This document shows, one piece after another, positions 44,901-60,299 of a stretch of 64,000 bases of DNA (position 1 is the first letter of the stretch; each line of letters opens with the position of its first letter). Source of the stretch: Novakomyces olei (taxonomy: Eukaryota); NCBI GenBank assembly GCA_016906335.1, contig JADEYG010000002.1, positions 1,612,001 through 1,676,000 of the forward strand, in the 5' to 3' direction. The position numbers and the translations under genes are program-made. Below the pieces are notes generated by a model that was given only the letters and a program-made list of their open reading frames with translations, did no database searches and was not told the DNA's origin.

Positions 44901-46184
44901 GATAATGTTGCTGATTTAAAAGCTGCTATTGCCTCAAACAATAAGGGTATTCAGCTGATATCTAGTCTTGTCAAGGAGTACACTTGGCCTGTTGTCGAGT
45001 TTTATATGATGGCGATACAGGAAAACGCGGCCCAGTCGGTGCGCGAGCTTCTAAAGGTCTTTTCTCATCGTTTTGATGGACAAGATCTCGAAGCTATCGA
45101 CTACATGGACGATGGAAGCCTTCTCGCTCTTCGAATCACAATAGATAGCAAGAGTGGCGAAGCCATATTTGACTTTTCTGGAACAGGACCAGAACAGTTT
45201 GGTAATCTCAACTGTCCACCGGCAATAATGTACTCTGGAATCATGGTAGGTCTGCTAGTGTCTTTTTATGCCAAAAGAATCATCAACTGTTTTTTTTTAA
45301 TTACTCTATTGCATCCAATTATTTTCTATGACCCGCTAATAAATCATCAGTACTGTCTACGTTCAATGATTTCGACCGACATCCCTTTGAATCAAGGCTG
45401 TCTTAAACCGATAAAGATTGTTTGCCCAGAAAATAGTATACTTTCGCCGTCTCTGAAAGCTGCAACTGTTGGATCGAATGTTGAAACATCACAGAGGATT
45501 GTGGATTTAATTTTCAAGGCTTTCCGTGCGGCAGCGGCGTCGCAAGGTACCTGCAACAATTTGACTTTTGGCTGTGGAGGACTCGACCCCGAAACGGGCA
45601 AGGAGATTAAAGGCTTTGGATATTATGAGACTATAGCCGGAGGATCTGGCGCTGGCGCAGACTGGGACGGTGAAAGTGGTGTTCATACGCATATCACGAA
45701 TACCAGAATGTCAGATCCAGAGATTTTTGAGAAACGGTACCCCGTAATTCTTCATGAATTTTCGATTCGAAAAGCGAGCGGGGGCAGAGGGCTTCATTGT
45801 GGAGGAGACGGCTGTATTCGGGACATTGAGTTCCGTAGACCGGTCCAAGTGTCAATTCTCTCAGAGCGACGAGTCATTGCGCCTTACGGAATGGCCGGGG
45901 GAGATGAAGGAATGAGGGGAATAAATCTTTGGGTCAGAAACTATGAGGATGGGACTACCAGAACAATCAACTTGGGCGGGAAGGCTACGACACCCATGCA
46001 AGCTGGCGACCGTATAGTCGTCAAAACACCTGGCGGCGGAGGGTATGGGATTGATCCCTCCAAGCCGGTGAAGAACGAAGTGTTTGGAGCTTTCCGTATA
46101 CATGATAAACTGAACCCTGCACAAACGCATTTTCGGGCAGGGGGAAGTGTTGCCAAACAAAACGCTCTAGCGGTCAGCAATTAA
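41934..46184 (+). CDS. OXP1: ATP-dependent 5-oxoprolinase (hydantoinase A+B fusion)
   Basis: IDRGGTFTD, MGTTVATNALLER, LSGPAGG, FD|MGGTSTDV, TVAAGGGS, NIKERLDYSCA, GTHLPD, YETIAGG and TPGGGGYG. Introns at 42910-43071 and 45246-45350. Confidence 0.95.
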
Positions 46185-47094: not shown

Positions 47095-48087
47095 CTATGC
47101 GACACGGTTCGACGTCTCACCCGTTTCCAGGTAGCTAATAACATTTTTCACCGTATCCGCCTCGCTAGAGTACAATGTCCGTTCTGTGAAAGCAGCGTAA
47201 TGAGGATGCATAGTAACTTTGGGACTGCTGAGGATGCGAGGATTGATTACTGGCTCGTGCTCAAACACGTCCAGTCCCGCAAAGGCAACGATTCCCTCAT
47301 CAATGGCATCTGCCAATGCACATTCGTCAACGAGACCACCTCGACCAGCATTTACAAAACGCACGCCCCTCTTCATTTTTTGAAACATTTTCCTATCGCA
47401 CATATGATGCGTTTCCGGCGTCAATGGACACTGCAATGCAACTACATCGCAGCTGCTCACGAGATCGTCCAAGTCTGTGTAGGTCGCCCCGATCTCTGTT
47501 TCCTCCGCTACGCTGAGCTGGCGGCGATTGTAGTATTTAATCTTCATACCAAACGCGGACCCCATTTGCTTTGCCACAATTTTGCCAATATTTCCCATGC
47601 CCACAATGCCAAGGGTGGAGCCCTGCGGATCTTTCCTCAGGTCTAAACCTTCGCGCCAGCCACCGTTGCGCATAACAATCTCGGCCTCCGAAGTGCCACG
47701 GAGCGTAGCCAGTACGAGGAAACTAACAAAAGTGGCAGTTGATTCTGCCGGTGCAAAGGGTGTATTTGCCAATTGCACGCCATTCGCCTTGTGCCACTTG
47801 GAATCGAAATCGTCATAGCCAGCACCAGCACTAGCCACCATCTTGAGGCCGGGCATAAGGCAGCCGAGAAACTCTCCATCGAGCGGGTGGAAACGAGTGA
47901 CCCCGAAAAGAATTATAAGCGCCTCGTACGGCCCATTGGCCTCGTACTGCGTCCGCATAGCCTCCATCATCTCGCTGCGCGTGCCCTTGTGCTCGAGACA
48001 GTCTAAATGTGCCAACTGCTGTAGGTGCTTGACTTCCGCTTCAGCCAGCGTGGGAGGGCGAAGCGCTAGTACCTTGCGGACCGTCAT
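47095..48087 (-). CDS. D-isomer-specific 2-hydroxyacid dehydrogenase (glyoxylate reductase-like)
   Basis: GAGYD, ANTP, GIVGMGNIG, YYNRR, CPLTPET, VNAGRG, GLDVFEHEP and HPH. Confidence 0.93.
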   Translation of the reverse strand: MTVRKVLALRPPTLAEAEVKHLQQLAHLDCLEHKGTRSEMMEAMRTQYEANGPYEALIILFGVTRFHPLDGEFLGCLMPGLKMVASAGAGYDDFDSKWHKANGVQLANTPFAPAESTATFVSFLVLATLRGTSEAEIVMRNGGWREGLDLRKDPQGSTLGIVGMGNIGKIVAKQMGSAFGMKIKYYNRRQLSVAEETEIGATYTDLDDLVSSCDVVALQCPLTPETHHMCDRKMFQKMKRGVRFVNAGRGGLVDECALADAIDEGIVAFAGLDVFEHEPVINPRILSSPKVTMHPHYAAFTERTLYSSEADTVKNVISYLETGETSNRVA

Positions 48088-48449
48088 TTTGACAGTGGTT
48101 CTCCTACGGCTGAGTTTGCCCCAATAGACGTACTGCTCTCAGTGTTATTGAGCCGCTTTTGCTGGTTATGCTCGAGTAGATCTTTACAAGTCTTAATCAA
48201 ATCTCTGTTTGACCTTAAACGATCGTGTACATTTATTTATCTCTGTCGGCTCCCACGCAAGCAATCAGGCGAGGCGCAAAATAGTTACTTAAAAAGGGGC
48301 ATCGGAGTTTAACCGCACATCATGTGCCTTAAATATAGCGGGATCAGCACGTAGCATGGCTGGCGTGTAATTTGATTTGATAAAGTTAGATGCGTAAACA
48401 GAGATAAAGTAGGACTGGCATCGCCTGCTGTTTGTTTATTCAATGCTTT

Positions 48450-48463
48450 GCGGATCATTACCG
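48450..48463 (+). promoter_or_regulatory. CGG-N7-CCG putative Zn2Cys6 site
   Basis: GCGG-ATCATTA-CCG, ~365 bp upstream of the dehydrogenase start. Confidence 0.55.
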
Positions 48464-49404
48464 GTGTATTATCAAAAACTTTAGGACATGGCAATAAAAA
48501 AAGAAAAAGAAAACAAAAAGACAATAATTTCTGGACTACATGGGAATCAGTCCATGAAGAAATGTAAAGTCTTCTATTCTTGCTTGCTGAATAGCTGAAT
48601 CAAAGGATGCCCAAGGCTAAGAGTTTAGAAGTATATTTAAGTAATAAGCAGTTCATTGTTTCGCAAAACATTTATTAATGCCTTAGAACTGCAATTACAA
48701 ATTTAAACCAGCTTTACAGCACTGCAATTGTGATGAAAGTCTATCCGAAACTCTAACCCAGTAATAAAATGGTTCCTAAAATAAAGTTGATAGGTGAATT
48801 ATTAGCATGCAGAAGCAGATGCAGGACGATATATGTAATCAGTTTTCAATTTAAAATCTCTTTATTTTGCCTCTCTCTCCCATTGGTTTTGGTTTAAACC
48901 AATTCCAAAAACAGTTTAGTCTATTGACCTGTTGCAATCGCTTAAAAAATGCATGTTTCTTGTTAATCGTGTGACAGAAAATTTAGAATCTGCTTTGAAT
49001 TGCAGTAACTTTATTTGATTATGTTTATTTGCTCCAGAGCTATTTTTTTGCTCTTAAAAGAGGCATTTCAAACAGCTTCATCCAGCTGATTTATTTTTTA
49101 CAATATTATTTGTAAATTTGGCGAAATCAAGGCAAACTCAGAGCTGCAGGAAGACATACACTACATTATTAATGAATAATTTTATTAAAATATTTGAGTA
49201 ACTATAATATTGATTAAACAATTACCGTAGGCTTATCAATTTTTGCCAGGTAGATTGAAGTAGGGACCAGGCGTCAGAGTTTATGTGTGAGCTGCTTCCT
49301 TTTCACGAAAGACCAAATTTCCTGATCAGTTTTGATTCAAATTTGATCAACTCTGCTCTTCTAAGCTGAATCGTTTCTAACTTATAAATATTTATGCAGT
49401 GAAT

Positions 49405-51274
49405 TTAACCCGCTAGGTAGCCACGAATTCTAACGTACCATGGCTCAGTAACGCGTTTCTCTAGCCACTGAATCTGAGCCATAGTAAGGGGTCGACGGCC
49501 TGTATAAATGTCCATTTTGTCATAAGTACGAAAGTTTTGTCGATACACTAGCTTGTGACAAGCATACACAAACAAGAAAATTGGAACACCGAGGTACTGG
49601 CGGAAAAAGGCGTTTGCGCTTGGGGAGCCAGTCAACGGCCACCCGCTTATAATTCCGGTTCCAATCAGCATGAGAAAACTGCCAATTCCCGTTACTATAG
49701 TACTAACGGGATAGAGACTGCGATAGGACCATTTTTCGGTCAGCACAGGATCCTTTTGTACCTTTAAAGCTTTCCGGAAACGATAGTGACTCAAGCCAAG
49801 CGATATCCAGCCTATGAAGAAAACTGTACTCGACATTGAAGAAAACCAAACAAAAACGGTGGCGCCTCCAGCAGAGCAGTTTATGTACGACCAAAGGATG
49901 CTTAACAGGGCTGAGATAATAAGAGAGTTACGCGGTCTCCCACGGCTATCGAGCTTTGCAAACCACTGCGGAAACATATGTGAGCGAGCCATGCCGGCCA
50001 TGAGACGGCTGCAGATATACACACCCTCAGAACCAGTGGTCACTGTGCAAAGAAGAATTGTTGCGTTGATTATATGGTCCCAAACCGGGATTCCAGCGTG
50101 TTTAAAAGCAATGACAAACGGAGATTGACTTGAAGAACTTCCACCAAGCAGATCGGGAGAATTTGCAGCTGTATATTTAGTAATTTTGCTAACAATTTAT
50201 AGTTTAGAATTTTAGAATTCAACTTTTTAGTCAGTACTTACGAACAAGAACAGTAATCATGATGACGCCGAGTATAAAAATAAAAATTAAACGCGCAAAC
50301 ATGCTTTTTGCTGCACGTGGAAGGCTTTTCCGGACAAAATTGGACTCTTCCGACATTATAGCAAGAATCAACTGATCACCGGTAGACCAAACAGCTTGTG
50401 AAAATGTTTGGCAAAATCCACGAAACCCATTTATGAAAGCCGGATGGCCAATCCAATTTTCACCACCAACTGCGTGACCATGTGGACCTGCTCCCGCAGC
50501 AACCGCGATGCAAGCAATTAATAGCGCAAATACGAAGAGGACCTTCCATAGCGACGTGAAAAATTCGTATTCTCCAAACCATTCGTTGGGCAATAAATGG
50601 ACAGAAAACATAAGTATCAAAAAAATAGTCACTGTCTGTCAACAAAGGCAAGGAACATATATTCTTCTTACTCCAGGCCGCAAGTGGCACACTAGAGGTC
50701 CAGTAGTCTATTGTGATGGCAAAGGCAGAACTTTCAGCCCCAACCACTGTGCTCCAAGCTAAGATTTCACAGAAGCCTGATATTAGCAAAGATGGTATAC
50801 GACTTTATGGAAGAACAACAAGGACAGCAAAGTAGCATTAGCTTACCAATAGCAAAGCCCCAACTAGGATCAATAAAACGATGAGAATAGTCAATAAAGC
50901 CGCCAACCACAGGCAGTACGCATCCCATTTCGGCGATCAAATCTAAGGAGCATAGAACCACGGCCATCACACACATGTAACCAATAATCATGTTTGCTGG
51001 TCCGCCCAAATGCAATGCTCGGCCCGTCGAAATAAAGTATCCACTTCCCAAATGGCCACCCAGGGCTACCATTGAAGTATGGCGTGCCTTGAAGCCTTGA
51101 CGGTAGGCATTTTTTGGGGCTTCCCAGTTCTCTAATGTAATTTCAACGACATGGTCTGAAGTTAATAGATGCTCCTTAAAATGTCTTTTTACCCTCAGTT
51201 TCAGAAGTTTTTCCAGGGCTTAAGGCTTTGCCTTCTCCCTTCTCTTGAACAATTTTCGAGTCTGAGCTGTCCAT
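49405..51274 (-). CDS. Amino-acid permease (APC/YAT family), multi-exon
   Basis: ARHTSMVALGGHLGSGYFI, AEM..LPV.GGF..Y..RFIDPS.GFAIG, FGEYEF, SSPFVIAF..AGI, SRLM..MA..P..FAKLDSRGRP and FFRQYLG. ATG at 51274. Confidence 0.92.
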
Positions 51275-51746
51275 GCTTATGTCCTGATAATGACTAATTT
51301 TTTGCATAATTTATATAAGAAGACATCCCACGTACGCGCCTTATCTTTATCACAGCCAGACATGAACCCATTACTTATAAGTGGTAAAATGCCGAAATTG
51401 CCAAGGAAGATTAACTATTGCTGAGCATGAAACCATCACTGGAAATTCGCCCCGAGGGAAAATTTACCGTTAGGCTTAGCCTTGTCTTTAGCAGGGCAAA
51501 TTAAAATTACCAGAATTATGGTCTCAGCTTTTTAAGCACTTATCCGGAAAGGCGAGCATGAACACTCGTGGTAGAGAGAGGTTTTTATTTTGCCATGCAG
51601 AAAGTACTTGTGAACAAAGCAAAACCCTGTAATAAGTCGAGCCCAATTAAAGGTGTAGGCTATTTCAGTCAAGCCTTTGCGCATTTTTACATTAGACGCG
51701 TTCTTATGCAAATTTCACGGAAGTCGTACTTTTACTAAAATTGCTA

Positions 51747-53684
51747 TCAAATTTCAAATAGCTGACTAAACTGGGCTGCATTAGCCAAAAAAAGATCCAT
51801 CGTTGATTCGTCAAATTCGGGAGATTCTTCAGCAGAAAAGCTCTGGGAGGTTTTGTGGTCATTCATTGTTCTTCTTTTGATCTTGTTTAAAGACATTTGA
51901 CTTAACTCTTCGAATGTCTTCAGTACCCTATTAGCCCTTGGCCATCGCTCCGACATGGCTATTAGAACATGCTTGCATGCTCCGATGTTCTCAAAAACGT
52001 CAAAGAGAGTATATGTCTCGGGTTCTATGCAAACACAGTAGCATACTGTAACGCCGGCAACAAAAACAGCATGCAAAGACTGGCAGTTTACGTGGAGTAT
52101 GCCGCTCATATGCAAAGCCTTGTACATTTTACAGGATTCTGCAGCAGACAATGCACAATGTGCAAAAGCCTTCTTCTCACTAGTATTGCTGACAAGCGCC
52201 GGCCTGTACAAAAGAATGACTGTATTATGATATTCCAGATCAAACCAGTATTTGAAGGCGTATACGCTAGTGATATCCTCAAAAGAAGGCAGTCCTGACT
52301 TCCAGGTATCAAGCTTCTCCATGAAAATAGACTGTAAGCTTTGGCATGTCTCAGTGTCGAGGCAATGACATACTCGGTACAACGCAGAGATAATCTCGCT
52401 TTGGATCTGGCGCAACCTGATAATATGAAGAAACGACGTTGTGAATTTTACAAGAGGGTCTGTTAGCTTTCGTTCTGAGTACAAATGTAGGCAGCTCATG
52501 ACCACGTTATCAGGCAGAGCGTACACGTCCAAATCAAGAGGCAACTTGGCGTCGATATCATTTTCTGATATGCAAAAAGGTCGTCCCGTGCTTATTGCTA
52601 CTGATCTGTCGAGACAGTACGCAGACCAGAAAATGCACCGTCGGTGCTGCGCGTGTCGAATCGGCATATCATCTGACTCTGAAACATGCCGATGCAGAGC
52701 TGTCTCTATACAGAGCCGCATAGCTATGCCAGAAAGTTCCCACGCAGAAGTTCCCACCTGTGTACTAAGGCAGTACGTGGCTAACAAAAGCACAGCTTGC
52801 ACGCGCACAAGATTACCTTGGAGCAATGTCTCATTTAAATTTTGTAGTGCCACCGACAGATAGTAGTCTGCCTCAGCGTTACTAGTTTTCGCAGCGTCAT
52901 GCTCCTCCTGACGCCCAATAGCACAAATCATAAATGTGAAGAATAGTGCTACTGCACTGCTGGCGCAGTCGCCAATAGCAACTTGCACGATGTACCGGTC
53001 CACCTCAACGAGGTGCAGGAACGGGAACCGTCTGTGGAAAGTCTTCAGGTAGACGTCAAAGTAGTGCCGTATCAGCTCAAGGCTGGGCACTTTTGTATCC
53101 CACCAAGAAGCAGAAAGCTCTTGCTCAGAGCCTGAGCCGATACAAAAAGTCGCGTCTTCTGCCTCACCGGGCGTTGCAATATACTTTCGCAGGCTTTGGG
53201 CCAGTATAATACCGGACGACGACCCAACGTAGTATCGCTCCTTACTTGAATCTAAGCAGAGCCAAGCAATGTCGGAAGTGACGGAATTGATACCGGAATC
53301 CAGCACTTGAGACGCTTGCTTCCGCTGCTGTGCCGCAGCTGCATTAGCCGCTACAAGGCCAGAGCCAGACGATTCCTCGAAAACGCCATCGTCATCGTCA
53401 AGATGGTCCCCGGCAGCCTCGGGGTAGACTGAGCGTACAAGGCTTTCTAGATAAGCCACCCGGCTTTCCAAGTGCTCCGTATACTGCCGTGGCACATCAC
53501 GGCCAAGAAGCTTGTCCTGATAAAAACAGGGCACCCCTGAGTGTAAACATCTTTTGCACGTTGGCAAGGTTCCATCACACCGACGCTTAGTCTTTCTGCA
53601 TCTGGAACAGGCAATATGGCCGGCCTGCCGTCCAATTCTAGCGCCGCTTTCTTTGCCCTCCGCAAAGCGCTTATCGCTGGACAT
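51747..53684 (-). CDS. Zn(II)2Cys6 transcription factor, Ppr1/UaY-like
   Basis: ACSRCRKTKRRCDGTLPTCKRC....VPC, the linker GRDVPRQY..HLESRVAYLE, YVGSSSG, AMRLCIE.ALH and RRCIFWSAYCLDR..GRP. Confidence 0.93.
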   Translation of the reverse strand: MSSDKRFAEGKESGARIGRQAGHIACSRCRKTKRRCDGTLPTCKRCLHSGVPCFYQDKLLGRDVPRQYTEHLESRVAYLESLVRSVYPEAAGDHLDDDDGVFEESSGSGLVAANAAAAQQRKQASQVLDSGINSVTSDIAWLCLDSSKERYYVGSSSGIILAQSLRKYIATPGEAEDATFCIGSGSEQELSASWWDTKVPSLELIRHYFDVYLKTFHRRFPFLHLVEVDRYIVQVAIGDCASSAVALFFTFMICAIGRQEEHDAAKTSNAEADYYLSVALQNLNETLLQGNLVRVQAVLLLATYCLSTQVGTSAWELSGIAMRLCIETALHRHVSESDDMPIRHAQHRRCIFWSAYCLDRSVAISTGRPFCISENDIDAKLPLDLDVYALPDNVVMSCLHLYSERKLTDPLVKFTTSFLHIIRLRQIQSEIISALYRVCHCLDTETCQSLQSIFMEKLDTWKSGLPSFEDITSVYAFKYWFDLEYHNTVILLYRPALVSNTSEKKAFAHCALSAAESCKMYKALHMSGILHVNCQSLHAVFVAGVTVCYCVCIEPETYTLFDVFENIGACKHVLIAMSERWPRANRVLKTFEELSQMSLNKIKRRTMNDHKTSQSFSAEESPEFDESTMDLFLANAAQFSQLFEI

Positions 53685-54620
53685 TTAGAGATGACTTTTG
53701 ATACAGGCGCTCGACAGAAAAAGATAGCCGTTCATAGTAATATTTATGTTACTATTTTTTGGAAAAATAGTAAAATTCCAAAACAGGATATGTACGAAAC
53801 TCGCGTGAAAGATGCGGGCGAAACGAAATTATACAGTACTTTTGACAAACAATTTTGCGCTTGAGAGTTTTCCGGTCTAAAGCGAGTCAATTGCCTTTGT
53901 GCACAAGCTGTTTGAATATTTTTTTATTTTCAAGGATTATTTCTCTAAACAACCTACACTCGAGACGTGCAAGACAAACGTTTCTTTAATGTCCAAAGTG
54001 CTATTATTATAAGCCTGCATTTGGGATTTAATCTTCTTTGCGCCAAAACAGCAATCAAAGGTAGAAGAGGCTTACGTGCCATACTCATTGCGTCTGCAAC
54101 TAGAAATAGCAAAGTAGAGCGAAAAACATGATATACAATGGCATATATATGAAATATAGACAGGAAATAAAACATGGCTAAACAGATGAACACTAATTCA
54201 TATTTACCTGCTGCTTATTTGCGAGCTCCAGCTCTCGACAACTAGGCTTGTTTCTCTTACTGTCTGGTAAACTAAAAATCTATTTATGCTAGCGCTTTAA
54301 TACGTGCCGCAAGCGGCGTACCTCATGGTAAAACTCAAATCTGGTCTACTCAACGGCAGATCGAGAAATCTAAAGAAAAATTGCAACGACACATGATCAG
54401 TTTTGTTGACCATTTTGACATAATCTTCTTCTTTTATGCCAAGTAACACATACGCAAACTCATGAACTATAGCTTTTGTCAAACAATAAGCATTTGTGAA
54501 TTAGGTAAATCCTGAAGATAGCAAACTGCGGCAAGAAGTCGAGCCATGCTCAAATGAAAAGATAATCGACAAGCAAAGGACAACGCTATTCAGCATTGAA
54601 GCAGGCTTCAACTTAATATT

Positions 54621-55472
54621 TTAAAGCAAAATTTCCCCCTTTGTGTCGTATACCATCTGTTCAAAATGCGGCTGAAACTGTGTATGCAGGCAAACAGAGC
54701 CTCCGTGGCGCGCCGTGAAACCAGCAAATTCATCGTCAATAATTGATTTCTTCAAACCATTTGCAGCAGCGGCTTCAACTTTGAGCTGCGTTTCGCAGCA
54801 TCTTTCAATGCAATTATATAAAAATGCAGCCTCTTCGACCGTATGACCTACCGTTAAGAGACCGTGGTTCTGAAGAAACAATACGCTTTTGTCTGCTAAA
54901 GCTTTTGCGATTGAATCACTTTCCTCCGCACTAAGAACAACACCTGTAAACTTGAAAATTGCCTGCCGGTTGTAAGCGTAGCAAGCATCTTGGCTCAGCA
55001 TTTCGAGCGGGAGCCCAAAAGTTGACCAAGCTCGACCATTTGGAGAATGGCAATGGCATGCTGCGTTGACATCGGGACGAGCTCTGTGAACAGCCGCGTG
55101 AATAAGAAACCCAGACTTGTTGACTTTTGCCGTACAAGTCTTATCGACCAAATTACCTTCCTCATCAACTAAAACCATATCTGAGGCCCTTAAAACCCCA
55201 AATGGTCGCGCGTACGGATTTATCCAAAAATGGTGTGGGTTCACGGGGTCCCGCAACGAAATATGACCTGAACAGCCTTCACTAAACCCTAGCTTATCCC
55301 ACAATCTGAAAGCAGCCGCCATTTTTTCCTTTTGGTCTTTGCGTGCTTCAAAGGGATTAGAAAAGATTTTTATTTGGTGAAGCTCTTCTGTCGGACTAGG
55401 GTTTTTGGTCGCCGCCTCAATAGTACGAGTCTTCAGAGCCGGCTTGGCTTCAATCGTAACCGTATTGCTCAT
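54621..55472 (-). CDS. Class II aldolase/adducin-family protein
   Basis: EG.SGHISLRDP, FWINP, GFLIHAAVHRARPDV.AACHCHS and LQNHGLLTVG.TVEEA (Zn-binding His). The probable ATG is at 55472. Confidence 0.92.
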   Translation of the reverse strand: MSNTVTIEAKPALKTRTIEAATKNPSPTEELHQIKIFSNPFEARKDQKEKMAAAFRLWDKLGFSEGCSGHISLRDPVNPHHFWINPYARPFGVLRASDMVLVDEEGNLVDKTCTAKVNKSGFLIHAAVHRARPDVNAACHCHSPNGRAWSTFGLPLEMLSQDACYAYNRQAIFKFTGVVLSAEESDSIAKALADKSVLFLQNHGLLTVGHTVEEAAFLYNCIERCCETQLKVEAAAANGLKKSIIDDEFAGFTARHGGSVCLHTQFQPHFEQMVYDTKGEILL

Positions 55473-55696
55473 TCTTTGTTTATTTCTTCTCTGCGACTCG
55501 ATCACCAGCAAATCAACAAGGCTGCAAGATTTTGCAAAAACTAGATCTTGACCGTTAACCAGACGACAATTGGACTATATTGATTCTCAGATCCAATGTC
55601 TTATCGCGCACATATATATATCTATATAAATACTTGAGCACGGATCGATAAATCATATGTTTAATCGTTCATCTCACATCCATACATAATTTTTAT

Positions 55697-55750
55697 GCGG
55701 GATAACCGCGCAGGAAATGATAGACAAATACGTCTGCGGGATATCACCGC
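55697..55750 (+). promoter_or_regulatory. Two CGG/CCG inverted sites in the aldolase-cupin divergent promoter
   Basis: GCGG-GATAA-CCGC (N5, 55698-55708) and GCGG-GATATCA-CCGC (N7, 55737-55749). Confidence 0.6.
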
Positions 55751-55890
55751 AAACGCGCCACAAATAAATTGATAATAATATTAAAAGTAAAGATAAATTG
55801 TAGAAAGGAAGCATAATAAAACTAAAAAAAAAAATTAAAACTCAAATAACACTCGAGCAAAGGGTAGTTTGCACGCATTTTAGCTGAATC

Positions 55891-56241
55891 ATGGAGCATC
55901 TGCATAATTGCCTTGCTCGTCCAATTAAAGGAACATCATATTTGGCTGCTGCTGACATGAAATTTAAGCTAATTAAGCCCGGGTATTGGAGTGCAGGACT
56001 GATGGAGGATAGCCCGAACTTTAAATCTATGCTCATGAAAATTGAGCCTGGAGCTCAGGGCGAAAGGCACTGGCACGCTGGGTTATACGAACATATTTAT
56101 GTTCTGGATGGTGAATTTTCAGACACAGAGAACAAATACAAAAAGGGAGACTATGTCGTTCGTGAACCAGGCTACCCACACCAAACTAAATCGGCGGAAG
56201 GCGCAACAATACTAGTTGTCCTCACTTCGGGACCGTTATAA
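55891..56241 (+). CDS. Small ChrR-like cupin protein
   Basis: Cupin motifs IEPGA....HWH.GLYEHIYVLDG and GDYVVREPG.PH. Confidence 0.85.
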   Translation: MEHLHNCLARPIKGTSYLAAADMKFKLIKPGYWSAGLMEDSPNFKSMLMKIEPGAQGERHWHAGLYEHIYVLDGEFSDTENKYKKGDYVVREPGYPHQTKSAEGATILVVLTSGPL

Positions 56242-57162
56242 TTTCTCAACTCGGGAAATATGAAGGCGCTCCTCGGTTTACCAATAACAATATCGCGTGG
56301 GATTCTGGAGTTTCATAATCTATACCTATTTCGCATAGCATAAACTATACTCGGATAGAAATAGAACAATTCGCTGCAGTATTAATCAATTCACATTCGC
56401 ATTCCAAAAAGAAGTCCACGCCCAGGAGCCACTCAATTCGTCAGACTGAGAGTGTTAGATAGCACCTGATTAATGACTCGTGCTGTACCATTGCTTATCG
56501 CATCCAAATCATGATCTCCAGTTGCTATATCAGGCTTTGACGCCTATTATGCCAGTTTGGGCGCCCGCTTTAGCCGCCTCCCACGCAAGATATCAGCTAA
56601 AAACAATATCACACTAAAAACCCTAGGGTGAAAAGTATGAAGATAACGCACAAGTGCACCACAAATGCTTCATATTACTTCATAATTCTTGATACCAGCA
56701 GGCTCTCACAAGCTAAATGAGCGTGAAATCTAACGACTGGTTAATTCTTCGAATTGTATCAATGCTAGAAATTCTGAACACTGTTTCAAATTCAACAATT
56801 ACGCACGTACAAATGCAAATATGCTCTACGATGTTGGATTTGGCCTTATCCTTGATAGGGGAGTCGTTTTTGTTAAGAGGTTTGGTAGGCGATATCTGCC
56901 CCCAGTGCGTGCTTGATCTCGCTCGTTGGCAGCAAGACCACGACTACACAGTGTGGTTGTGAAATTCTGTTACCGCGTCGTATTCAATAAAGCAAAAAGT
57001 TGCACTATAAAGAAAAGCATACATACAAGTTTATAATTAATTGTCGCTAGTATGATAAAAACAATTCCTATTGCCGTCTAAATTTAAAACCAATCTAACG
57101 TTAACATAACGATACTTGGCCAATTTGAGACCATCTAAACTGCAATAAAGCTATATAGGGAA

Positions 57163-57927
57163 CTATGCCTGTGAAATCTGGCTTCGAGGCAACTTGCGTA
57201 ATTCTGCGTTTACGTCCGGACCATAGCGGACACGGGTCAGACCACTGTAAAAAAATTCAGCCAGCGTGTTCGCGTCAAACACAGGCAAGCCAGTTGCGTC
57301 CTGAATAGCCAAAGCATACGGTGGCAATTGCGTGCATTCGAGAAGAATAGCACCAATGTTTCCATGCTCACGAATTAGAGTGTTGGCCAGGCCTACAAGC
57401 TCTTTAGCTCCCTCTTCATAGTCAATGGGGCCAGAGTCTTTAATTTGAGTTGAAATTGCACCTCCATAGGGGACTCCAATGACTGGCGTACTCGGATCTC
57501 CGTGGACGGCATCAAAGTGCACCTTTGAAAGAGATTCTGCACGATAAGTAATAATGCCCACTTGCTTACTGCGTGGGATAAAAGTCCTGATGAGCGGTAG
57601 TTGCTGTAAACTGCTTGTTATGACGGGAACAGATAGTGCGTCTGCCAAATATGGCTGAATCTGTGCCAAAAATCCACATGATGTATAAATTCCGATGCAT
57701 CCGTCCTTCTCCACCATTTCTTTTGCAAGAGCGACAAATTCGTTAACAAATTCTTGATCAAACTTATTTGGGTTAACCACCGCTTTAACAGATGCATTCT
57801 TTAATGCTCTTGTGACAATAGGGAAGTCGAACGTAGCCTGAGTCCCAGTATCACCAGGGATTCTATGAATGTTGATGTTCAACGTGATTATGCCTAATGG
57901 GCCAGACGCAAAACCCGCGCGAGTCAT
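57163..57927 (-). CDS. Asp/Glu/hydantoin racemase-superfamily protein
   Basis: LGII, RIPGD.G...TF.FP, both catalytic-type Cys motifs (TSCGF and LECTQL), PVITSSL and TGLPVFD. Confidence 0.85.
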   Translation of the reverse strand: MTRAGFASGPLGIITLNINIHRIPGDTGTQATFDFPIVTRALKNASVKAVVNPNKFDQEFVNEFVALAKEMVEKDGCIGIYTSCGFLAQIQPYLADALSVPVITSSLQQLPLIRTFIPRSKQVGIITYRAESLSKVHFDAVHGDPSTPVIGVPYGGAISTQIKDSGPIDYEEGAKELVGLANTLIREHGNIGAILLECTQLPPYALAIQDATGLPVFDANTLAEFFYSGLTRVRYGPDVNAELRKLPRSQISQA

Positions 57928-58111
57928 AAGGGATTGTTATATTTGACTTTTATGGCGTGCAAAAGCTGAATGCCGAAAAACCACTTGTCAGGGCAACCAA
58001 AGTTTCGATTTAAACGACACTGGCTCTATTGAGGCAGCAATTAAGCCCACATTTATATGATATAAAACTATGCCAAGCAGGCGTTTTATCGCAATTCTTA
58101 TCATCACGAAT

Positions 58112-58125
58112 GCGGCGAATCACCG
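58112..58125 (+). promoter_or_regulatory. CGG-N7-CCG putative Zn2Cys6 site
   Basis: GCGG-CGAATCA-CCG, ~186 bp upstream of the racemase-like gene, next to TTTATC/CTTATC GATA sites. Confidence 0.55.
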
Positions 58126-58677
58126 AATTCTCAGTGTGTGTGATAACAGTATAATGGGGTAGGAATTATTATTATGCTACATGAATATCGTAACAGAAAC
58201 GGAAATAAATTTATGTACCATGAATATATTGAGGACTTATCGTATAACGGATAGTTCTGAGGAAAATGTCTTCTGAAAAAGCTCTGACGGAAATGCTTTT
58301 AATGAAAACATTTTGGTTTGTCGGATCTCGTAAAAAAATTACTCAATGCCGTGATTTTTTCGTCATCATTGTTGATCGGACTCTGTCCCGATGTTCATCT
58401 ATATCTATTATCAGAAATCTGTCCCCAATGCTACTTGTAGTTTTATGGCTATGTCCTTGAGGTGCAGCACATGATCTCCAAACATTATATCCGCTGACGT
58501 TGTAATTATTCTGTCAGCGCACAGATGCCGCTAAGTCGTAAAAATCAGACAAAAGATGTATGATGGGATTCACAAAGTGGAAAGCTATATTGCGAATTCC
58601 ACACTTTTTTAGCAAAAATGCTTGTTATTCTACGAACCACAAATACTTTAACGTTGCTAATTCGAACTGTATATCGG

Positions 58678-60108
58678 CTAAAGTCGAGATGGTATTTCAT
58701 TTAACACTTTTTCTCTTGGCTGATTGTGCAAAATGCGACTGGTAGAAAGAGGCTCCCCAATTTTGTTTTTGACTTTTTCTGCCTGCGTGTAGGATCGCCA
58801 CTTGTATTTTTTTGTGAAAATTGTCTCCTTTCCCTCCAGCACATCAACAACATGCCGACCAACCAGTGGGAAAAAAGAAAAGCCCCGACCGGAGTCGCCG
58901 GTAGCCACAAGTAGACCATGAAAATTCGGAACCCAGTCGATAAGAAATTCATCGTCCATAGAGTCTGCATACCAGCAAAGTCGTGTTTTGACAAGCTTCA
59001 CATCCGGCGAACAAAGCTCCGGCAGATTATCACGTAAAAAATTGTGGATGTAAGAAAGGCTTTTATCAGGAATCTCTTTGATGGCGGGAACAGTAGATTG
59101 TGTACACGGCGTCGACACCAAGTTACCGTTACTTCCGTTTTGTGGGTTGAGCCATTTTATCCCCTTGTACCCAATTTTGACACGGCCGTCTTTTGTACGA
59201 GGGAATCCATAAAGTGCACCAGTTTCGCCTTCCCGGTAGCGATAAGTAAAGGGCGGGAAGTTGTCTGAGCTGAACCGATTCCAAAGATCTCTTCGTGATT
59301 TGGGGAGCTGGAAAATGCAAACTGAGCCACCAGTTGCTTCCACACACTCATTCATGCTCACAACAGATGGCGTCCAGGCCCCCAGGCAACAAATAATGGT
59401 TGATGCCTGATGGCACTGGCCATCAGCTGTCCGGATGCCCACTATTTGACGACGGCCGCGACTATCGGAAGCGGCATCAAACAAAAACTCCGCGAATTCT
59501 CCCCTTTTAGAACCCATAATTGTACGTGCTCCGCCCTTGCGGACGAGATACAGGGCAAATGTGCAAGAATCGCTTGCCATTGAGACGCCGCCCGACAAAT
59601 CTAGCAATCCATTTTGTGGGAAATTGCGCTTTCGGCGAGTTAGTGGATCCGTTTTCATTGGGTTAATGCCGTCTGCCAAAGCACGGCTAAGGTCATCCTT
59701 GCTGGAAAGATCGTATACGTTTGAGCGTTTGTGGGACAAAATATCCAAATCTTCGGGGGGCAGATCTTTGTCGCTGATAATGGCCGTTCCACACTCAACC
59801 AAAAGCTTTGTATCCTGCGTCAGAGGCGACGGTAGGTCATGATATTTAGGAATGTCGCTATTCCACTTTCTCCAAGCGTTCAAACACTGCATACCAAAGT
59901 CGCGATAGATTTCTTGTGTCTGACTTTCAGCACGGAAAAGCTTATTATAGTCGCTTGAGGCACTATCTGCACCCTTGTCAAAATCATAATGGTCGAATCG
60001 ATCAAAGATCGTAACGTTCTTGTAGCCACGCTCGATCAAATGCAATGCTGTACTAAGCCCAAACACGCCGGCTCCAAGAATAATGATAGACGTATCTTTA
60101 CCCTCCAT
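58678..60108 (-). CDS. FAD-dependent amine oxidase (sarcosine/pipecolate/fructosyl-amine oxidase family)
   Basis: ILGAGVFGLSTA, SASSDYNKLFR, GAWTP, LYGFP, RLCWYAD (flavinylation Cys) and FLIDW..LLVATG.SG.GF.F. The probable ATG is at 60108. Confidence 0.9.
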   Translation of the reverse strand: MEGKDTSIIILGAGVFGLSTALHLIERGYKNVTIFDRFDHYDFDKGADSASSDYNKLFRAESQTQEIYRDFGMQCLNAWRKWNSDIPKYHDLPSPLTQDTKLLVECGTAIISDKDLPPEDLDILSHKRSNVYDLSSKDDLSRALADGINPMKTDPLTRRKRNFPQNGLLDLSGGVSMASDSCTFALYLVRKGGARTIMGSKRGEFAEFLFDAASDSRGRRQIVGIRTADGQCHQASTIICCLGAWTPSVVSMNECVEATGGSVCIFQLPKSRRDLWNRFSSDNFPPFTYRYREGETGALYGFPRTKDGRVKIGYKGIKWLNPQNGSNGNLVSTPCTQSTVPAIKEIPDKSLSYIHNFLRDNLPELCSPDVKLVKTRLCWYADSMDDEFLIDWVPNFHGLLVATGDSGRGFSFFPLVGRHVVDVLEGKETIFTKKYKWRSYTQAEKVKNKIGEPLSTSRILHNQPREKVLNEIPSRL

Positions 60109-60284
60109 AAGGAAGAATTTATCCGAGCGCACGCCTTCTAAAGTCGATGTAAACTGTTTGTCTTGACAAGCATGAAGTCGTACATCTTTTTATAATGGTT
60201 AGAATATAATGCTAAAATACAAATGCTTACAAGTTTAGACTACATATCTTATCGGAGATTTTGTGTGTTGCGTGGGCCATTTGC

Positions 60285-60299
60285 GCGGGATAATACCGC
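60285..60299 (+). promoter_or_regulatory. CGG-N7-CCG putative Zn2Cys6 site
   Basis: GCGG-GATAATA-CCGC, ~178 bp upstream of the oxidase start. Confidence 0.6.

What the first reader, a model, noticed from the sequence alone, without database searches (positions are those of the whole stretch)
47095..60299. Candidate undescribed, co-regulated amino/imino-acid catabolic gene cluster
Seen: seven contiguous genes, namely a D-2-hydroxyacid dehydrogenase, an amino-acid permease, a Zn2Cys6 factor, a class II aldolase, a cupin, a two-Cys racemase-like protein and a sarcosine/pipecolate-type flavin oxidase. They share a promoter motif (next finding) and carry GATA sites. Known: transporter + regulator + enzymes is the layout of fungal catabolic clusters such as prn, GAL and DAL, but I know of no described cluster with this combination. 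Inference: uptake, then racemisation/epimerisation, oxidative C-N cleavage, aldol cleavage or decarboxylation, and reduction of a 2-oxoacid such as glyoxylate. This would fit use of a hydroxylated cyclic imino acid (hydroxyproline or hydroxypipecolate type) or an N-substituted amino acid as a nitrogen source. The substrate is speculative.
Basis: partly seen in the sequence, partly recalled or inferred. Interest (0 to 1): 0.85.

Follow-up and report, generated by a model that had tools for sequence, protein, structure and literature searches.

The report
Conserved fungal amino-acid breakdown gene cluster
Seven neighbouring fungal genes, five of which also sit together in other fungi, look like an undescribed pathway for breaking down an unusual amino acid, possibly one derived from lysine.

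Summary
The seven genes are real and lie at the stated coordinates (Pfam). Five form a conserved core: the Zn2Cys6 factor, the two-Cys racemase-like protein, the FAD oxidase, the D-2-hydroxyacid dehydrogenase and the class II aldolase-fold protein. All five lie within about 10 kb, in varying order, on 5 of 16 fungal-type metagenome loci, which are 4 distinct sequences. The permease and the cupin are found in none of the 16.

- The "aldolase" is closest to TqaM and NovR, which are O2-dependent oxidative decarboxylases of (R)-2-hydroxy acids.
- The "racemase" belongs to the uncharacterised PRK07475 subfamily, the nearest relative of algal Alma1 DMSP lyases.
- Three distinct sister clusters also carry HglS, the 2-oxoadipate to D-2-hydroxyglutarate enzyme. 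The window has none.

A CGG-N7-CCG site lies 150-370 bp upstream of five of the seven genes, which is suggestive only. GATA sites are at chance level.

Best reading: a catabolic route from amino or imino acid to 2-oxo acid, to (R)-2-hydroxy acid, then oxidative decarboxylation. The substrate is plausibly from the lysine family. I found no description in print. No expression data were available.

The parts
47095..48087 (-). D-isomer-specific 2-hydroxyacid dehydrogenase, 330 aa, single exon
   Evidence: Pfam 2-Hacid_dh_C E 3e-54 and 2-Hacid_dh E 2e-15. The best solved relative is a fungal glyoxylate reductase, 3wnv, E 1.7e-51; D-mandelate dehydrogenase scores 8e-35. No NCBIfam equivalog reaches its cut-off. 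Homologues lie divergently next to the racemase-like gene in L082, L086, L090, L092 and L093/L094.
49405..51307 (-). Amino-acid permease (APC/AAP family) with several introns; the 5' end is approximate
   Evidence: Pfam AA_permease on three ORF pieces covering profile positions 1-84, 116-251 and 253-467. The missing stretch and a candidate first exon were seen by eye. The Atlas gives only generic 'amino acid permease' clusters. No homologue is present in any of the 16 related loci.
51747..53684 (-). Zn2Cys6 transcription factor, 645 aa
   Evidence: Pfam Zn_clus E 8e-10 and Fungal_trans E 7e-28. The CX2CX6CX6CX2CX6C spacing can be read from the translation. Homologues (26-40% identity, up to E 1e-66) lie next to racemase-like homologues in L082, L084, L086, L090, L092 and L093/L094.
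54621..55472 (-). Class II aldolase-fold protein of the TqaM/NovR type, 283 aa
   Evidence: Pfam Aldolase_II E 4e-47. NCBIfam NF004855 scores 277.7 bits, over its cut-off of 255. PDB best hits are TqaM 9m09 at 1e-63, 9n43 at 3e-58, 4xxf at 9e-54 and NovR at 4e-43. The CHCHS and NHG histidines align with TqaM. Homologues are present in L082, L086, L090, L091, L092 and L093/L094.
55891..56241 (+). Small single-domain metal-binding cupin, 116 aa, divergent from the aldolase-like gene
   Evidence: Pfam Cupin_7 E 2e-13 and Cupin_2 E 1e-10. The G-x5-HxH-x4-E-x6-G and PG-x2-H motifs can be read from the translation. The best PDB matches cover only the metal-motif stretch of oxalate decarboxylase-type bicupins, E 2e-10. 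It is absent from the 16 related loci even at E 10.
57163..57927 (-). [quoted passage not shown]
   Evidence: Pfam Asp_Glu_race 35.9 bits. NCBIfam NF005679 scores 226.7 bits against a cut-off of 231. No PDB sequence hit at E 1. The AlphaFold model has pLDDT 93.9, and Foldseek finds Glu racemase, arylmalonate decarboxylase and hydantoin racemase at TM 0.5-0.67 and 13-20% identity. C84 and C198 are invariant. The best database relative is 43% identical.
58678..60108 (-). FAD oxidase of the sarcosine/pipecolate/fructosyl-amine oxidase group, 476 aa, C-terminal -SRL
   Evidence: Pfam DAO E 3e-24. PDB best hits are fructosyl amine oxidases at 1.6e-29, then monomeric sarcosine oxidase and N-methyltryptophan oxidase. 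Database homologues are at most 42% identical, and sources name them sarcosine, L-pipecolate or L-saccharopine oxidase. The C-terminus is SRL; sister-cluster orthologues end in AKL, AKL, ARL and PSL.
48303..48315 (+). CGG-N7-CCG site (CGGAGTTTAACCG), 216 bp upstream of the HADH ATG
48451..48463 (+). CGG-N7-CCG site (CGGATCATTACCG), 364 bp upstream of the HADH ATG
55737..55749 (+). CGG-N7-CCG site (CGGGATATCACCG) in the bidirectional promoter, 265 bp from the aldolase-like ATG and 142 bp from the cupin ATG
58113..58125 (+). CGG-N7-CCG site (CGGCGAATCACCG), 186 bp upstream of the racemase-like ATG
60286..60298 (+). CGG-N7-CCG site (CGGGATAATACCG), 178 bp upstream of the oxidase ATG

Best explanation
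This is a real, evolutionarily conserved fungal metabolic gene cluster, most likely catabolic.

The conserved core has five genes:
- a pathway-specific Zn2Cys6 factor;
- a two-Cys PRK07475/Alma-type enzyme;
- a peroxisomal (PTS1) FAD amine oxidase;
- a D-2-hydroxyacid dehydrogenase;
- a TqaM-type Fe(II)/O2 enzyme with the class II aldolase fold.

In this genome an amino-acid permease and a small metal cupin have joined the core.

Proposed mechanism (all steps inferred, none assayed):
1. The permease imports an unusual amino or imino acid.
2. The two-Cys enzyme abstracts the alpha-proton to invert the configuration for the oxidase.
3. The oxidase produces an imine, and from it a 2-oxo acid, with H2O2 released in the peroxisome.
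4. The dehydrogenase reduces the 2-oxo acid to the (R)-2-hydroxy acid.
5. The TqaM-like enzyme removes C1 by O2-dependent oxidative decarboxylation, giving the acid one carbon shorter.

The Zn2Cys6 factor probably drives the enzyme genes through CGG-N7-CCG sites. Sister clusters carry HglS, which is specific for 2-oxoadipate. The substrate is therefore most plausibly a lysine-family C6 compound such as 2-aminoadipate, pipecolate or a derivative.

My sub-confidences are: cluster real and conserved 0.9; catabolic 0.7; the 2-oxo to (R)-2-hydroxy to decarboxylation chain 0.4; lysine-family substrate 0.3.
For: Shown:
- Family assignments for all seven genes.
- All five core genes lie within about 10 kb, in three different orders, on L082, L086, L092 and L093/L094. 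L090 has four of the five, L091 (1.8 kb) has racemase-like plus aldolase-like, and L084 has TF plus racemase-like.
- The HADH and racemase-like genes form a divergent pair in all five distinct multi-gene instances.
- Oxidase orthologues end in a PTS1-like tripeptide in 4 of 5 cases.
- The aldolase-fold protein aligns with TqaM at E 1e-63 and keeps the metal histidines. TqaM oxidatively decarboxylates (2R)-2-hydroxy acids using one O2 (review passages).
- HGLS (PF07063, E 1e-141 to 1e-148) is present in L082, L092, L093/L094 and L096. The L092 copy aligns with P. putida HglS at 4e-117 and keeps His70 and Arg74.
- A class III aminotransferase lies beside the L090 cluster. P. chrysogenum catabolises lysine to 2-aminoadipate through an omega-aminotransferase (reference titles and passages).
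- In bacteria, PRK07475 homologues have a DAO-family gene within about 3 kb in 7 of 20 loci examined. This repeats the racemase-like plus DAO pairing.
- CGG-N7-CCG sites lie 142-364 bp upstream of five genes.
Against: - No expression data exist, so co-induction is untested.
- The window itself has no HglS (0 tblastn hits). The lysine-family link is therefore borrowed from relatives whose proteins are only 35-59% identical to the window's.
- The oxidase's solved relatives act on secondary amines such as sarcosine, fructosyl amines and N-methyl-Trp. That does not fit a primary amine such as 2-aminoadipate.
- PRK07475 proteins have no known activity, and racemisation is only one option.
- TqaM and NovR are biosynthetic enzymes, and another close solved relative (4xxf) is deposited as a fuculose-1-phosphate aldolase.
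- The motif is absent from the permease and TF promoters. It is not conserved in sister loci and is only marginal after multiple-test correction.
- L087, an 8.8 kb locus in the Pezizomycotina clade, has the racemase-like gene without any partner.
- None of the 80 best bacterial loci holds the aldolase-like, oxidase or cupin homologue at E 1e-5, and 1 of 80 holds an HADH.
- Bacterial contexts of the aldolase-like family are heterogeneous. A 2-oxoacid reductase is adjacent in only 2 of 17.
Confidence: 0.45

Rival explanations
1. A hydroxylated cyclic imino acid (hydroxyproline or hydroxypipecolate type) is epimerised and oxidised, then cleaved by a true aldolase to glyoxylate plus a keto acid. 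Glyoxylate is reduced by the D-2-HADH.
For: The racemase-like plus DAO-type pairing mirrors the bacterial hydroxyproline epimerase and D-hydroxyproline dehydrogenase pair (recalled knowledge), and it recurs in 7 of 20 bacterial loci. One bacterial locus, L015, also has an ornithine cyclodeaminase/mu-crystallin gene. The HADH's best solved relative is a fungal glyoxylate reductase at 1.7e-51. The oxidase family includes pipecolate and proline oxidases.
Against: The nearest solved relatives of the aldolase-fold protein are oxidative decarboxylases, not aldolases acting on 4-hydroxy-2-oxo acids. HglS in sister clusters indicates a 2-oxoadipate intermediate, which hydroxyproline breakdown does not produce. 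No deaminase or semialdehyde dehydrogenase is in the cluster.
Confidence: 0.12
2. A small biosynthetic cluster that makes a non-proteinogenic amino or carboxylic acid, as TqaM does for 2-aminoisobutyrate, rather than a catabolic one.
For: Both functionally characterised close relatives of the aldolase-fold protein, TqaM and NovR, work in natural-product biosynthesis. GATA (nitrogen-regulation) sites are not enriched. A 2OG oxygenase with the same CGG-N6-ACCG site lies 9 kb away.
Against: There is no NRPS, PKS, terpene synthase or other scaffold gene in the window or in the sister loci. Several features are typical of catabolism: an uptake-type amino-acid permease, a peroxisomal H2O2-forming oxidase and HglS in sister clusters. 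Racemase-like homologues occur in yeasts such as Wickerhamomyces, Pichia and Ogataea, which as I recall carry few secondary-metabolite clusters.
Confidence: 0.13
3. Catabolism of a sulfonium or other onium compound, for example S-methylmethionine. The route would run through the 2-oxo acid and the (R)-2-hydroxy acid to DMSP. The Alma-like enzyme and/or the cupin would then act as lyases, not as a racemase.
For: PRK07475 is the subfamily closest to Alma1 DMSP lyases, and the window protein has the ECTQ motif used to define them. An Ascomycota-rich Atlas cluster near it is auto-named DMSP lyase. Small cupins are DMSP lyases in bacteria and fungi, for example DddF. Reduction of a 2-oxo acid to a D-2-hydroxy acid followed by O2-dependent decarboxylation are steps of algal DMSP synthesis (recalled). 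Bacterial PRK07475 genes sit among genes that look like osmolyte catabolism: MttB, DMGDH-like and GMC/aldehyde dehydrogenase.
Against: The first Alma motif is not met: SCGF instead of DCGF or NCGF. Bacterial PRK07475 proteins are reported to lack DMSP lyase activity (passage). The cupin shows no match to any DMSP-lyase cupin in the PDB search down to E 0.1, and it is absent from sister clusters. HglS in sister clusters does not fit this route.
Confidence: 0.07
4. Chance neighbourhood of unrelated accessory-metabolism genes in a gene-dense, subtelomere-like region.
For: The right half of the window is full of unrelated catabolic and transport genes: sulfatase, TauD, several permeases and three further Zn2Cys6-type genes. 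The permease and cupin are not conserved partners.
Against: The five-gene linkage recurs on four distinct contigs with rearranged order. That is not expected for unrelated genes.
Confidence: 0.04

Closest known systems
Pseudomonas putida D-lysine/pipecolate pathway: pipecolate oxidase AmaA, 2-oxoadipate, HglS, D-2-hydroxyglutarate, 2-oxoglutarate
   Same: Both have a DAO-family amine oxidase of the sarcosine/pipecolate type and an enzyme acting on a D-2-hydroxy acid. In the sister fungal clusters there is also a true HglS orthologue that keeps Arg74 (paper passages).
   Different: The window has no HglS. The fungal D-2-hydroxy acid enzyme is an NAD(P)-type D-2-HADH, whereas the bacterial D-2-HG dehydrogenase is FAD/FeS-dependent (recalled). 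The fungal cluster adds a PRK07475 enzyme and a TqaM-like enzyme, which have no counterpart in the bacterial route. The genes are clustered with a Zn2Cys6 factor.
TqaM (tryptoquialanine/2-aminoisobutyrate pathway) and NovR/CloR (aminocoumarin pathway)
   Same: The same class II aldolase fold and the same three-His metal site, with E 1e-63 and 4e-43. The proposed chemistry is also the same: O2-dependent oxidative decarboxylation of an (R)-2-hydroxy acid.
   Different: Those enzymes sit in secondary-metabolite clusters and receive their 2-hydroxy acid from an aziridine-opening hydrolase or make it themselves. Here the partner is a D-2-HADH and the context looks catabolic. The activity of the window protein is untested.
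Alma1 DMSP lyase family and the bacterial PRK07475 subfamily
   Same: The Asp/Glu/hydantoin racemase fold, two canonical cysteines and an ECTQ second motif. NF005679/PRK07475 is the best NCBIfam model.
   Different: The first motif is SCGF, not DCGF or NCGF. The score is just under the NF005679 cut-off (226.7 against 231). No DMSP-related genes are nearby. PRK07475 itself has no assigned function.
Fungal catabolic clusters with an in-cluster Zn2Cys6 factor and a permease (prn proline, DAL allantoin, hxn nicotinate)
   Same: The architecture is the same: transporter, pathway-specific Zn2Cys6 regulator and enzymes, with divergent promoters and candidate CGG-type binding sites.
   Different: The enzyme families are entirely different. 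None of those clusters, as I recall them, contains a PRK07475 enzyme, a TqaM-like enzyme or HglS. Induction has not been shown here.
Bacterial hydroxyproline pathway (HypE epimerase plus HypO D-hydroxyproline dehydrogenase), recalled
   Same: The same logic of a 2-epimerase followed by a DAO-family enzyme acting on the D-imino acid. The same pairing is seen next to bacterial PRK07475 genes in 7 of 20 loci.
   Different: HypE has the proline-racemase fold, not the Asp/Glu-racemase fold. The downstream deaminase and semialdehyde dehydrogenase are absent here.

Membership tests
D-isomer-specific 2-hydroxyacid dehydrogenase | Catalytic and NAD-binding domains (PF00389, PF02826) | tested here: met
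   Both domains score over their cut-offs, 57.3 and 183.5 bits. There are 35 PDB relatives at E below 1e-30.
D-isomer-specific 2-hydroxyacid dehydrogenase | Assignment to one substrate class (glyoxylate reductase, PGDH and so on) | tested here: inconclusive
   All 22 NCBIfam equivalogs score far below their cut-offs. The best is 181.8 bits against 454.
TqaM/NovR-type non-heme Fe oxidative decarboxylase (class II aldolase fold) | Class II aldolase fold with a three-His metal site | tested here: met
   PF00596 E 4e-47. CHCHS and NHG align with the same residues of TqaM and NovR. The metal ligation by three histidines is taken from review passages.
TqaM/NovR-type non-heme Fe oxidative decarboxylase (class II aldolase fold) | O2-dependent decarboxylation of an (R)-2-hydroxy acid | not testable with these tools
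   This needs an enzyme assay. The sequence is equally close to 4xxf, which is deposited as a fuculose-1-phosphate aldolase.
Asp/Glu/hydantoin racemase superfamily | Two-domain fold with one catalytic Cys at the end of a strand in each domain | tested here: met
   PF01177 scores 35.9 bits against 31. The model has pLDDT 93.9. Foldseek probability is 1.00 to Glu racemase, arylmalonate decarboxylase and hydantoin racemase. C84 and C198 are invariant.
PRK07475 (NF005679) subfamily | Score over the curated cut-off of 231 bits | tested here: inconclusive
   The score is 226.7 bits over profile positions 14-243 of 246, just under the cut-off. The window protein groups with fungal homologues as sister to the bacterial members.
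Alma1-type DMSP lyase | DCGF or NCGF around the first Cys | tested here: not met
   The window and fungal homologues have SCGF. The criterion comes from a passage in PMC10349084.
Alma1-type DMSP lyase | ECTE or ECTQ around the second Cys | tested here: met
   LLECTQLPP.
Sarcosine/pipecolate/fructosyl-amine oxidase group of the DAO family | DAO fold, with best similarity to members of this group | tested here: met
   PF01266 E 3e-24. The PDB search gave 34 hits, all from this group, the best at 1.6e-29.
Sarcosine/pipecolate/fructosyl-amine oxidase group of the DAO family | Substrate (secondary or primary amine) | not testable with these tools
   The best named relatives are only about 25-42% identical. 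No NCBIfam equivalog reaches its cut-off.
Fungal catabolic gene cluster | In-cluster pathway regulator and transporter | tested here: met
   Zn_clus plus Fungal_trans, and AA_permease. Sister clusters have the TF and an MFS transporter.
Fungal catabolic gene cluster | Linkage conserved in other genomes | tested here: met
   This holds for five of the seven genes. All five are on 5 of 16 loci (4 distinct) and four of the five are on L090. The permease and cupin are on 0 of 16.
Fungal catabolic gene cluster | Co-induction by the substrate | not testable with these tools
   No genome or RNA data are held for this organism.
HglS-dependent lysine/2-oxoadipate catabolism | An HglS (PF07063) gene in the cluster | tested here: not met
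   tblastn with two fungal HGLS proteins gave 0 hits in the window. HglS is present in L082, L092, L093/L094 and L096.

The most novel reading that the evidence does not exclude
The conserved core may encode a previously unrecognised catabolic chain-shortening route that needs neither CoA nor thiamine. The route runs from amino acid to 2-oxo acid to (R)-2-hydroxy acid, and then to the acid one carbon shorter through a TqaM-type Fe(II)/O2 enzyme.

In the HglS-bearing sister clusters, two successive iron oxygenases would take 2-oxoadipate to D-2-hydroxyglutarate and on to succinate. This would supply the missing lower part of fungal lysine/2-aminoadipate catabolism. It would also give the first physiological role to the PRK07475 relatives of Alma1, as a 2-aminoadipate or pipecolate racemase.
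Probability: 0.2. Interest if true: 0.8.

Novelty: new variant of a known kind. Interest (0 to 1): 0.6.

Why it matters
- **Fungal lysine catabolism.** The steps beyond 2-aminoadipate are genetically uncharacterised. The HglS paper says that almost no fungal lysine catabolic pathway is fully characterised and that the role of fungal HglS is untested (passages). A conserved cluster that joins HglS to four other enzymes and a dedicated regulator gives a concrete, testable candidate.
- **TqaM-type enzymes.** So far these oxidative decarboxylases are known only from natural-product biosynthesis. This cluster would place one in primary catabolism.
- **The PRK07475 family.** It would give a handle on the closest relatives of the algal DMSP lyase, which have no known function in bacteria or fungi.
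- **Annotation.** The 'fuculose-phosphate aldolase' and 'Asp/Glu racemase' labels on these fungal genes are probably misleading.

Tried and rejected
- **Whole genome.** None is held for this window, so I could not look for HglS or paralogues elsewhere in the genome.
- **Expression.** No RNA holder is listed for the stretch. I did not use read laying, because the runs on offer were DNA contigs only.
- **Earlier findings of this scan.** Nothing by place, sequence or words.
- **Bacterial synteny with window proteins.** Of 80 loci, 0 hold the aldolase-like, oxidase, cupin, permease, oxoprolinase, 2OG oxygenase or amidohydrolase, and 1 holds an HADH. The cluster as such is therefore not bacterial.
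- **Bacterial context of the aldolase-like family.** NF004855 was over its cut-off in 14 of 401 Pseudomonadota genomes, at 17 places. I scanned 89 neighbouring ORFs and the contexts are heterogeneous. The only 2-oxoacid reductase neighbours are L123 (HADH domain in the same ORF) and L127 (ApbA plus FMN_dh).
- **Motif conservation.** CGG-N7-CCG is not concentrated in the promoters of sister loci.
- **Unbiased k-mer scan.** AGCATAA occurs in 5 of 6 promoters, but the flanks show no similarity. I judged this AT-rich chance.
- **Oxoprolinase/hydantoinase gene (41892-46184).** I considered it as an eighth member, a possible lactamase for 6-oxopipecolate. It is absent from all 16 related loci and has no motif site in its promoter, so I left it out.
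- **Cupin as a DddF/DddK-type DMSP lyase.** No such entry appears in the PDB search down to E 0.1.
- **Permease subfamily.** The Atlas gave only generic names.
- **Papers I could not use.** The primary TqaM paper is not held. A search for PDB codes 9N43/9N45 found nothing relevant.
- **Recalled yeast lysine pathway.** This is the N6-acetyllysine route through a 2-oxo and a 2-hydroxy intermediate to 5-acetamidovalerate (Rothstein, 1960s). I could not verify it. The searches returned only metabolomics lists or unrelated papers, so it stays a recollection.
- **Locus-tag adjacency in named genomes.** Four other species that appear in two hit lists with sequentially numbered locus tags have tags that are far apart. 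These are Exophiala oligosperma and Penicillium alfredii, Colletotrichum karsti and Aspergillus nanangensis.

Full report
**Observation**

Stop-to-stop ORFs and Pfam confirm the seven genes at the stated places:
- a D-2-hydroxyacid dehydrogenase (HADH), 47095-48087, - strand;
- an intron-split amino-acid permease, about 49405-51307, - strand (Pfam pieces cover profile positions 1-84, 116-251 and 253-467);
- a Zn2Cys6 factor, 51747-53684, - strand;
- a class II aldolase-fold protein, 54621-55472, - strand;
- a 116-aa cupin, 55891-56241, + strand, divergent from the aldolase-like gene;
- an Asp/Glu-racemase-like protein, 57163-57927, - strand;
- a DAO-family oxidase, 58678-60108, - strand.

The window is fungal: it has introns, Zn2Cys6 and Fungal_trans domains and a Pkinase_fungal gene at 61643-64000.

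**Surroundings**

Directly upstream lies a fused hydantoinase/oxoprolinase gene (41892-46184, +). Further left are two more Fungal_trans genes, a 2OG-Fe(II) oxygenase, an Amidohydro_2 gene, a sulfatase, transporters and a TauD dioxygenase. At the far left are housekeeping genes. The cluster therefore sits in a region rich in accessory metabolism, and neighbourhood alone proves little.

**The proteins**

*Oxidase.* Its best solved relatives are fructosyl-amine oxidases (1.6e-29), then monomeric sarcosine oxidase and N-methyltryptophan oxidase. Database homologues reach only 42% identity, and their sources name them sarcosine, pipecolate or saccharopine oxidase. It ends in -SRL, a peroxisomal PTS1.

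*Aldolase-fold protein.* It passes the NCBIfam NF004855 cut-off (277.7 against 255 bits). It is closest to TqaM (1e-63), to an unnamed fungal class II aldolase-fold protein 9n43 (3e-58), to 4xxf (9e-54, deposited as a fuculose-1-phosphate aldolase) and to NovR (4e-43). The histidines of the metal site are kept. According to passages of a 2026 review (PMC13351049), TqaM is a non-heme iron enzyme. It binds the carboxylate and the 2-hydroxyl of a strictly (2R)-2-hydroxy acid on the metal, uses one O2 and removes C1 as CO2. I could not read the primary paper.

*HADH.* It is closest to a fungal glyoxylate reductase (3wnv, 1.7e-51), but it reaches no NCBIfam equivalog cut-off.

*Cupin.* It has the complete two-motif metal site. 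It resembles solved proteins only over that motif.

*Racemase-like protein.* It has no PDB relative by sequence. Its AlphaFold model (pLDDT 93.9) matches glutamate racemase, arylmalonate decarboxylase and hydantoin and allantoin racemases at TM 0.5-0.67 with 13-20% identity. Its only NCBIfam match is NF005679/PRK07475, 'hypothetical protein' (226.7 bits, cut-off 231). Two cysteines, in SCGF and ECTQ, are invariant in 56 homologues.

Passages of PMC10349084 state that PRK07475 is the bacterial subfamily closest to the algal DMSP lyase Alma1 and that it lacks that activity. They also state that Alma homologues are defined by DCGF/NCGF and ECTE/ECTQ. The window protein meets the second criterion and not the first. 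The Atlas places it beside PF01177 clusters, one of them Ascomycota-rich and automatically named DMSP lyase. I treat that only as a lead.

**Conservation of the cluster**

A fungal-only alignment of racemase-like homologues (A2) retrieved 16 metagenome loci. I ran tblastn with the window's proteins at E 1e-5. The results were:
- Racemase-like, oxidase, HADH, aldolase-like and Zn2Cys6 homologues all lie within about 10 kb on L082, L086, L092, L093 and L094. L093 and L094 are identical in the racemase-like row of the tree, so these are four distinct instances.
- L090 has four of the five, plus a different DAO gene and a class III aminotransferase.
- L091 (1.8 kb) has racemase-like plus aldolase-like.
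- L084 (GC 38%, next to Wickerhamomyces in the tree) has TF plus racemase-like plus two MFS genes.

Gene order differs between instances, but HADH and the racemase-like gene are always a divergent pair. Identities to the window are 33-45% for HADH, 33-45% for the racemase-like protein (39% in the single-HSP L082 match), 35-37% for the full-length oxidase HSPs, 37-65% for the main aldolase-like HSPs (as low as 29% in L086) and 23-47% for the TF.

The remaining loci are either short or fall in the bacterial part of the tree (L085, L088, L089). The exception is L087 (8.8 kb, Pezizomycotina clade), where the racemase-like gene has no partner. That is a counter-example.

Neither the permease, the cupin nor the oxoprolinase has a homologue on any of the 16 loci, even at E 10. 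Instead, L082, L092 and L093/L094 carry a Sugar_tr-type MFS and an HGLS gene (PF07063, E 1e-141 to 1e-148). L096 (3.6 kb) has racemase-like plus HGLS.

The L092 HGLS aligns with P. putida hydroxyglutarate synthase 6w1g at 4e-117. It keeps the ERHGAIR stretch that, by my count along the alignment, holds His70 and Arg74. Arg74 is the residue the HglS paper names as setting 2-oxoadipate specificity. The window has no HGLS.

Oxidase orthologues end in AKL, AKL, ARL and PSL.

In a tree of 47 rows, the window's protein is the deepest branch of a 100/100 clade. That clade holds all the fungal rows, plus two GC-rich metagenome rows (L081, L083) that may be bacterial, and it lies outside both the yeast and the Pezizomycotina subclades. 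L091 and L096 were dropped from the tree for short coverage.

One named genome gives a hint of the same linkage. In Phialemonium thermophilum, the aldolase-like VTK73DRAFT_10040 and the racemase-like VTK73DRAFT_10042 lie on contigs of equal length.

**Bacteria**

The 80 best bacterial loci with a PRK07475 homologue hold none of the window's other proteins at E 1e-5, except one HADH. I ran Pfam on 78 neighbouring ORFs from 20 of those 80 loci, chosen for full flanks. A DAO-family gene lies within about 3 kb in 7 of the 20: L010, L013, L021, L029, L036, L049 and L080. The same neighbourhoods hold MttB methyltransferases, DMGDH-like fusions, an ornithine cyclodeaminase-family gene, a creatinase/prolidase-type M24 gene, TRAP and ABC transporters and GntR regulators. 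The pairing of this enzyme with a DAO-type flavoenzyme is therefore older than the fungal cluster.

For the aldolase-like family, I examined 17 places in 14 of 401 Pseudomonadota genomes. The contexts are mixed. One has an HADH domain in the same ORF (L123). One has a ketopantoate-reductase-type and an FMN 2-hydroxyacid dehydrogenase next door (L127).

**Regulation**

Of 48 CGG/CCG patterns tested, only CGG-N7-CCG occurs in three or more cluster promoters. Five of its 11 sites in the window lie there (p 0.0017 uncorrected). All five read CGG-N6-ACCG on the + strand and lie 142-364 bp from the ATGs of HADH, aldolase-like, cupin, racemase-like and oxidase.

The window holds 7 such sites against 3.3 expected, and 3 of 100 shuffles reach 7. 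One of the two others lies about 90 bp upstream of the 2OG oxygenase at 38440. The permease and TF promoters have none, and sister loci show no such concentration. This is suggestive evidence for a regulon of the enzyme genes and no more than that.

HGATAR sites are at the level of composition-matched shuffles.

**Mechanism**

The invariant pairing of a D-2-HADH with a TqaM-type enzyme suggests that the dehydrogenase makes the (R)-2-hydroxy acid that the iron enzyme then decarboxylates oxidatively. The oxidase would supply the 2-oxo acid from an amino or imino acid. The two-Cys enzyme would adjust the alpha-configuration.

In the sister clusters, HglS makes (R)-2-hydroxyglutarate from 2-oxoadipate. 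That is again an (R)-2-hydroxy acid, and it could be oxidised by the HADH or decarboxylated to succinate by the TqaM-like enzyme. This points to 2-aminoadipate, pipecolate or lysine derivatives as the substrate.

Two further observations fit. L090 has a class III aminotransferase. P. chrysogenum is known to catabolise lysine to 2-aminoadipate by an omega-aminotransferase and to possess a pipecolate oxidase (reference titles and passages in PMC8954384).

All steps are inferred. The main weakness is that the oxidase's relatives prefer secondary amines, so a primary amine such as 2-aminoadipate is a poor fit. The window also lacks HglS, so its version (permease plus cupin) may handle a related but different compound.

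**Comparison and novelty**

The architecture is that of known fungal catabolic clusters, but the enzyme set is not one I could find described. Several searches returned no such cluster:
- HglS with fungi;
- DUF1338, lysine catabolism and the oxidase names;
- the combination of enzyme names;
- aminoadipate, pipecolate and catabolic gene cluster;
- TqaM;
- Alma1.

The HglS paper states that fungal lysine catabolism is largely uncharacterised. These searches cover open-access papers and preprints only. I rate the finding as a new variant of a known kind.

**Caveats**

- The metagenome contigs are unnamed and could contain assembly errors.
- Orthology is inferred from 35-59% identities, without whole genomes.
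- No RNA data exist.
- Several pathway analogies are recalled, not verified here: hydroxyproline catabolism, DMSP biosynthesis and the yeast N6-acetyllysine route.

Noticed in passing
window 41892-46184 (+): A fused hydantoinase A/B (oxoprolinase-type) gene of about 1380 aa with one intron lies immediately beside the cluster, with its 3' end facing the HADH. The best NCBIfam models are the caprolactamase subunits, far below their cut-offs. It might open a lactam such as 5-oxoproline or 6-oxopipecolate, but it is absent from all 16 related loci.
   Followed up: partly
window 37363-38382 (-) and site 38440-38452: A 2OG-Fe(II) oxygenase (DIOX_N plus 2OG-FeII_Oxy) carries the same CGG-N6-ACCG site about 90 bp upstream of its ATG. 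It lies between two further Fungal_trans regulator genes (35504-37198 and 39204-41199). It may belong to the same regulon.
   Followed up: partly
window 10577-34981: A run of scavenging-type genes: a xanthine/uracil permease, a TauD-family dioxygenase, FAD monooxygenase fragments, an MFS sugar-type transporter, an SSF transporter, a sulfatase and an Amidohydro_2 gene. This suggests an accessory-metabolism region.
   Followed up: no
L010, L013, L021, L029, L036, L049, L080 (bacterial loci): Bacterial PRK07475 genes sit next to DAO-family flavoenzymes in 7 of 20 loci examined. They often lie among genes that look like methylated-amine or osmolyte catabolism (MttB, DMGDH-like fusions, GMC oxidoreductase plus aldehyde dehydrogenase, creatinase-type M24). 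This family has no assigned function.
   Followed up: partly
L123:5020-6807 (+): In one proteobacterial genome a single open frame carries both a D-2-HADH NAD-binding domain and the NF004855-type aldolase-fold domain, with a glyoxalase/VOC gene next to it. It is either a fusion or two abutting genes. Either way it echoes the fungal pairing.
   Followed up: no
L081, L083 (metagenome loci, GC 67%): Two GC-rich, probably bacterial sequences branch inside the otherwise fungal clade of the racemase-like tree, just above the window's protein. This may bear on a horizontal origin of the fungal genes.
   Followed up: no
window 61643-64000 (-): A Pkinase_fungal (FunK1-type) kinase gene runs off the end of the window just beyond the oxidase promoter.
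   Followed up: no
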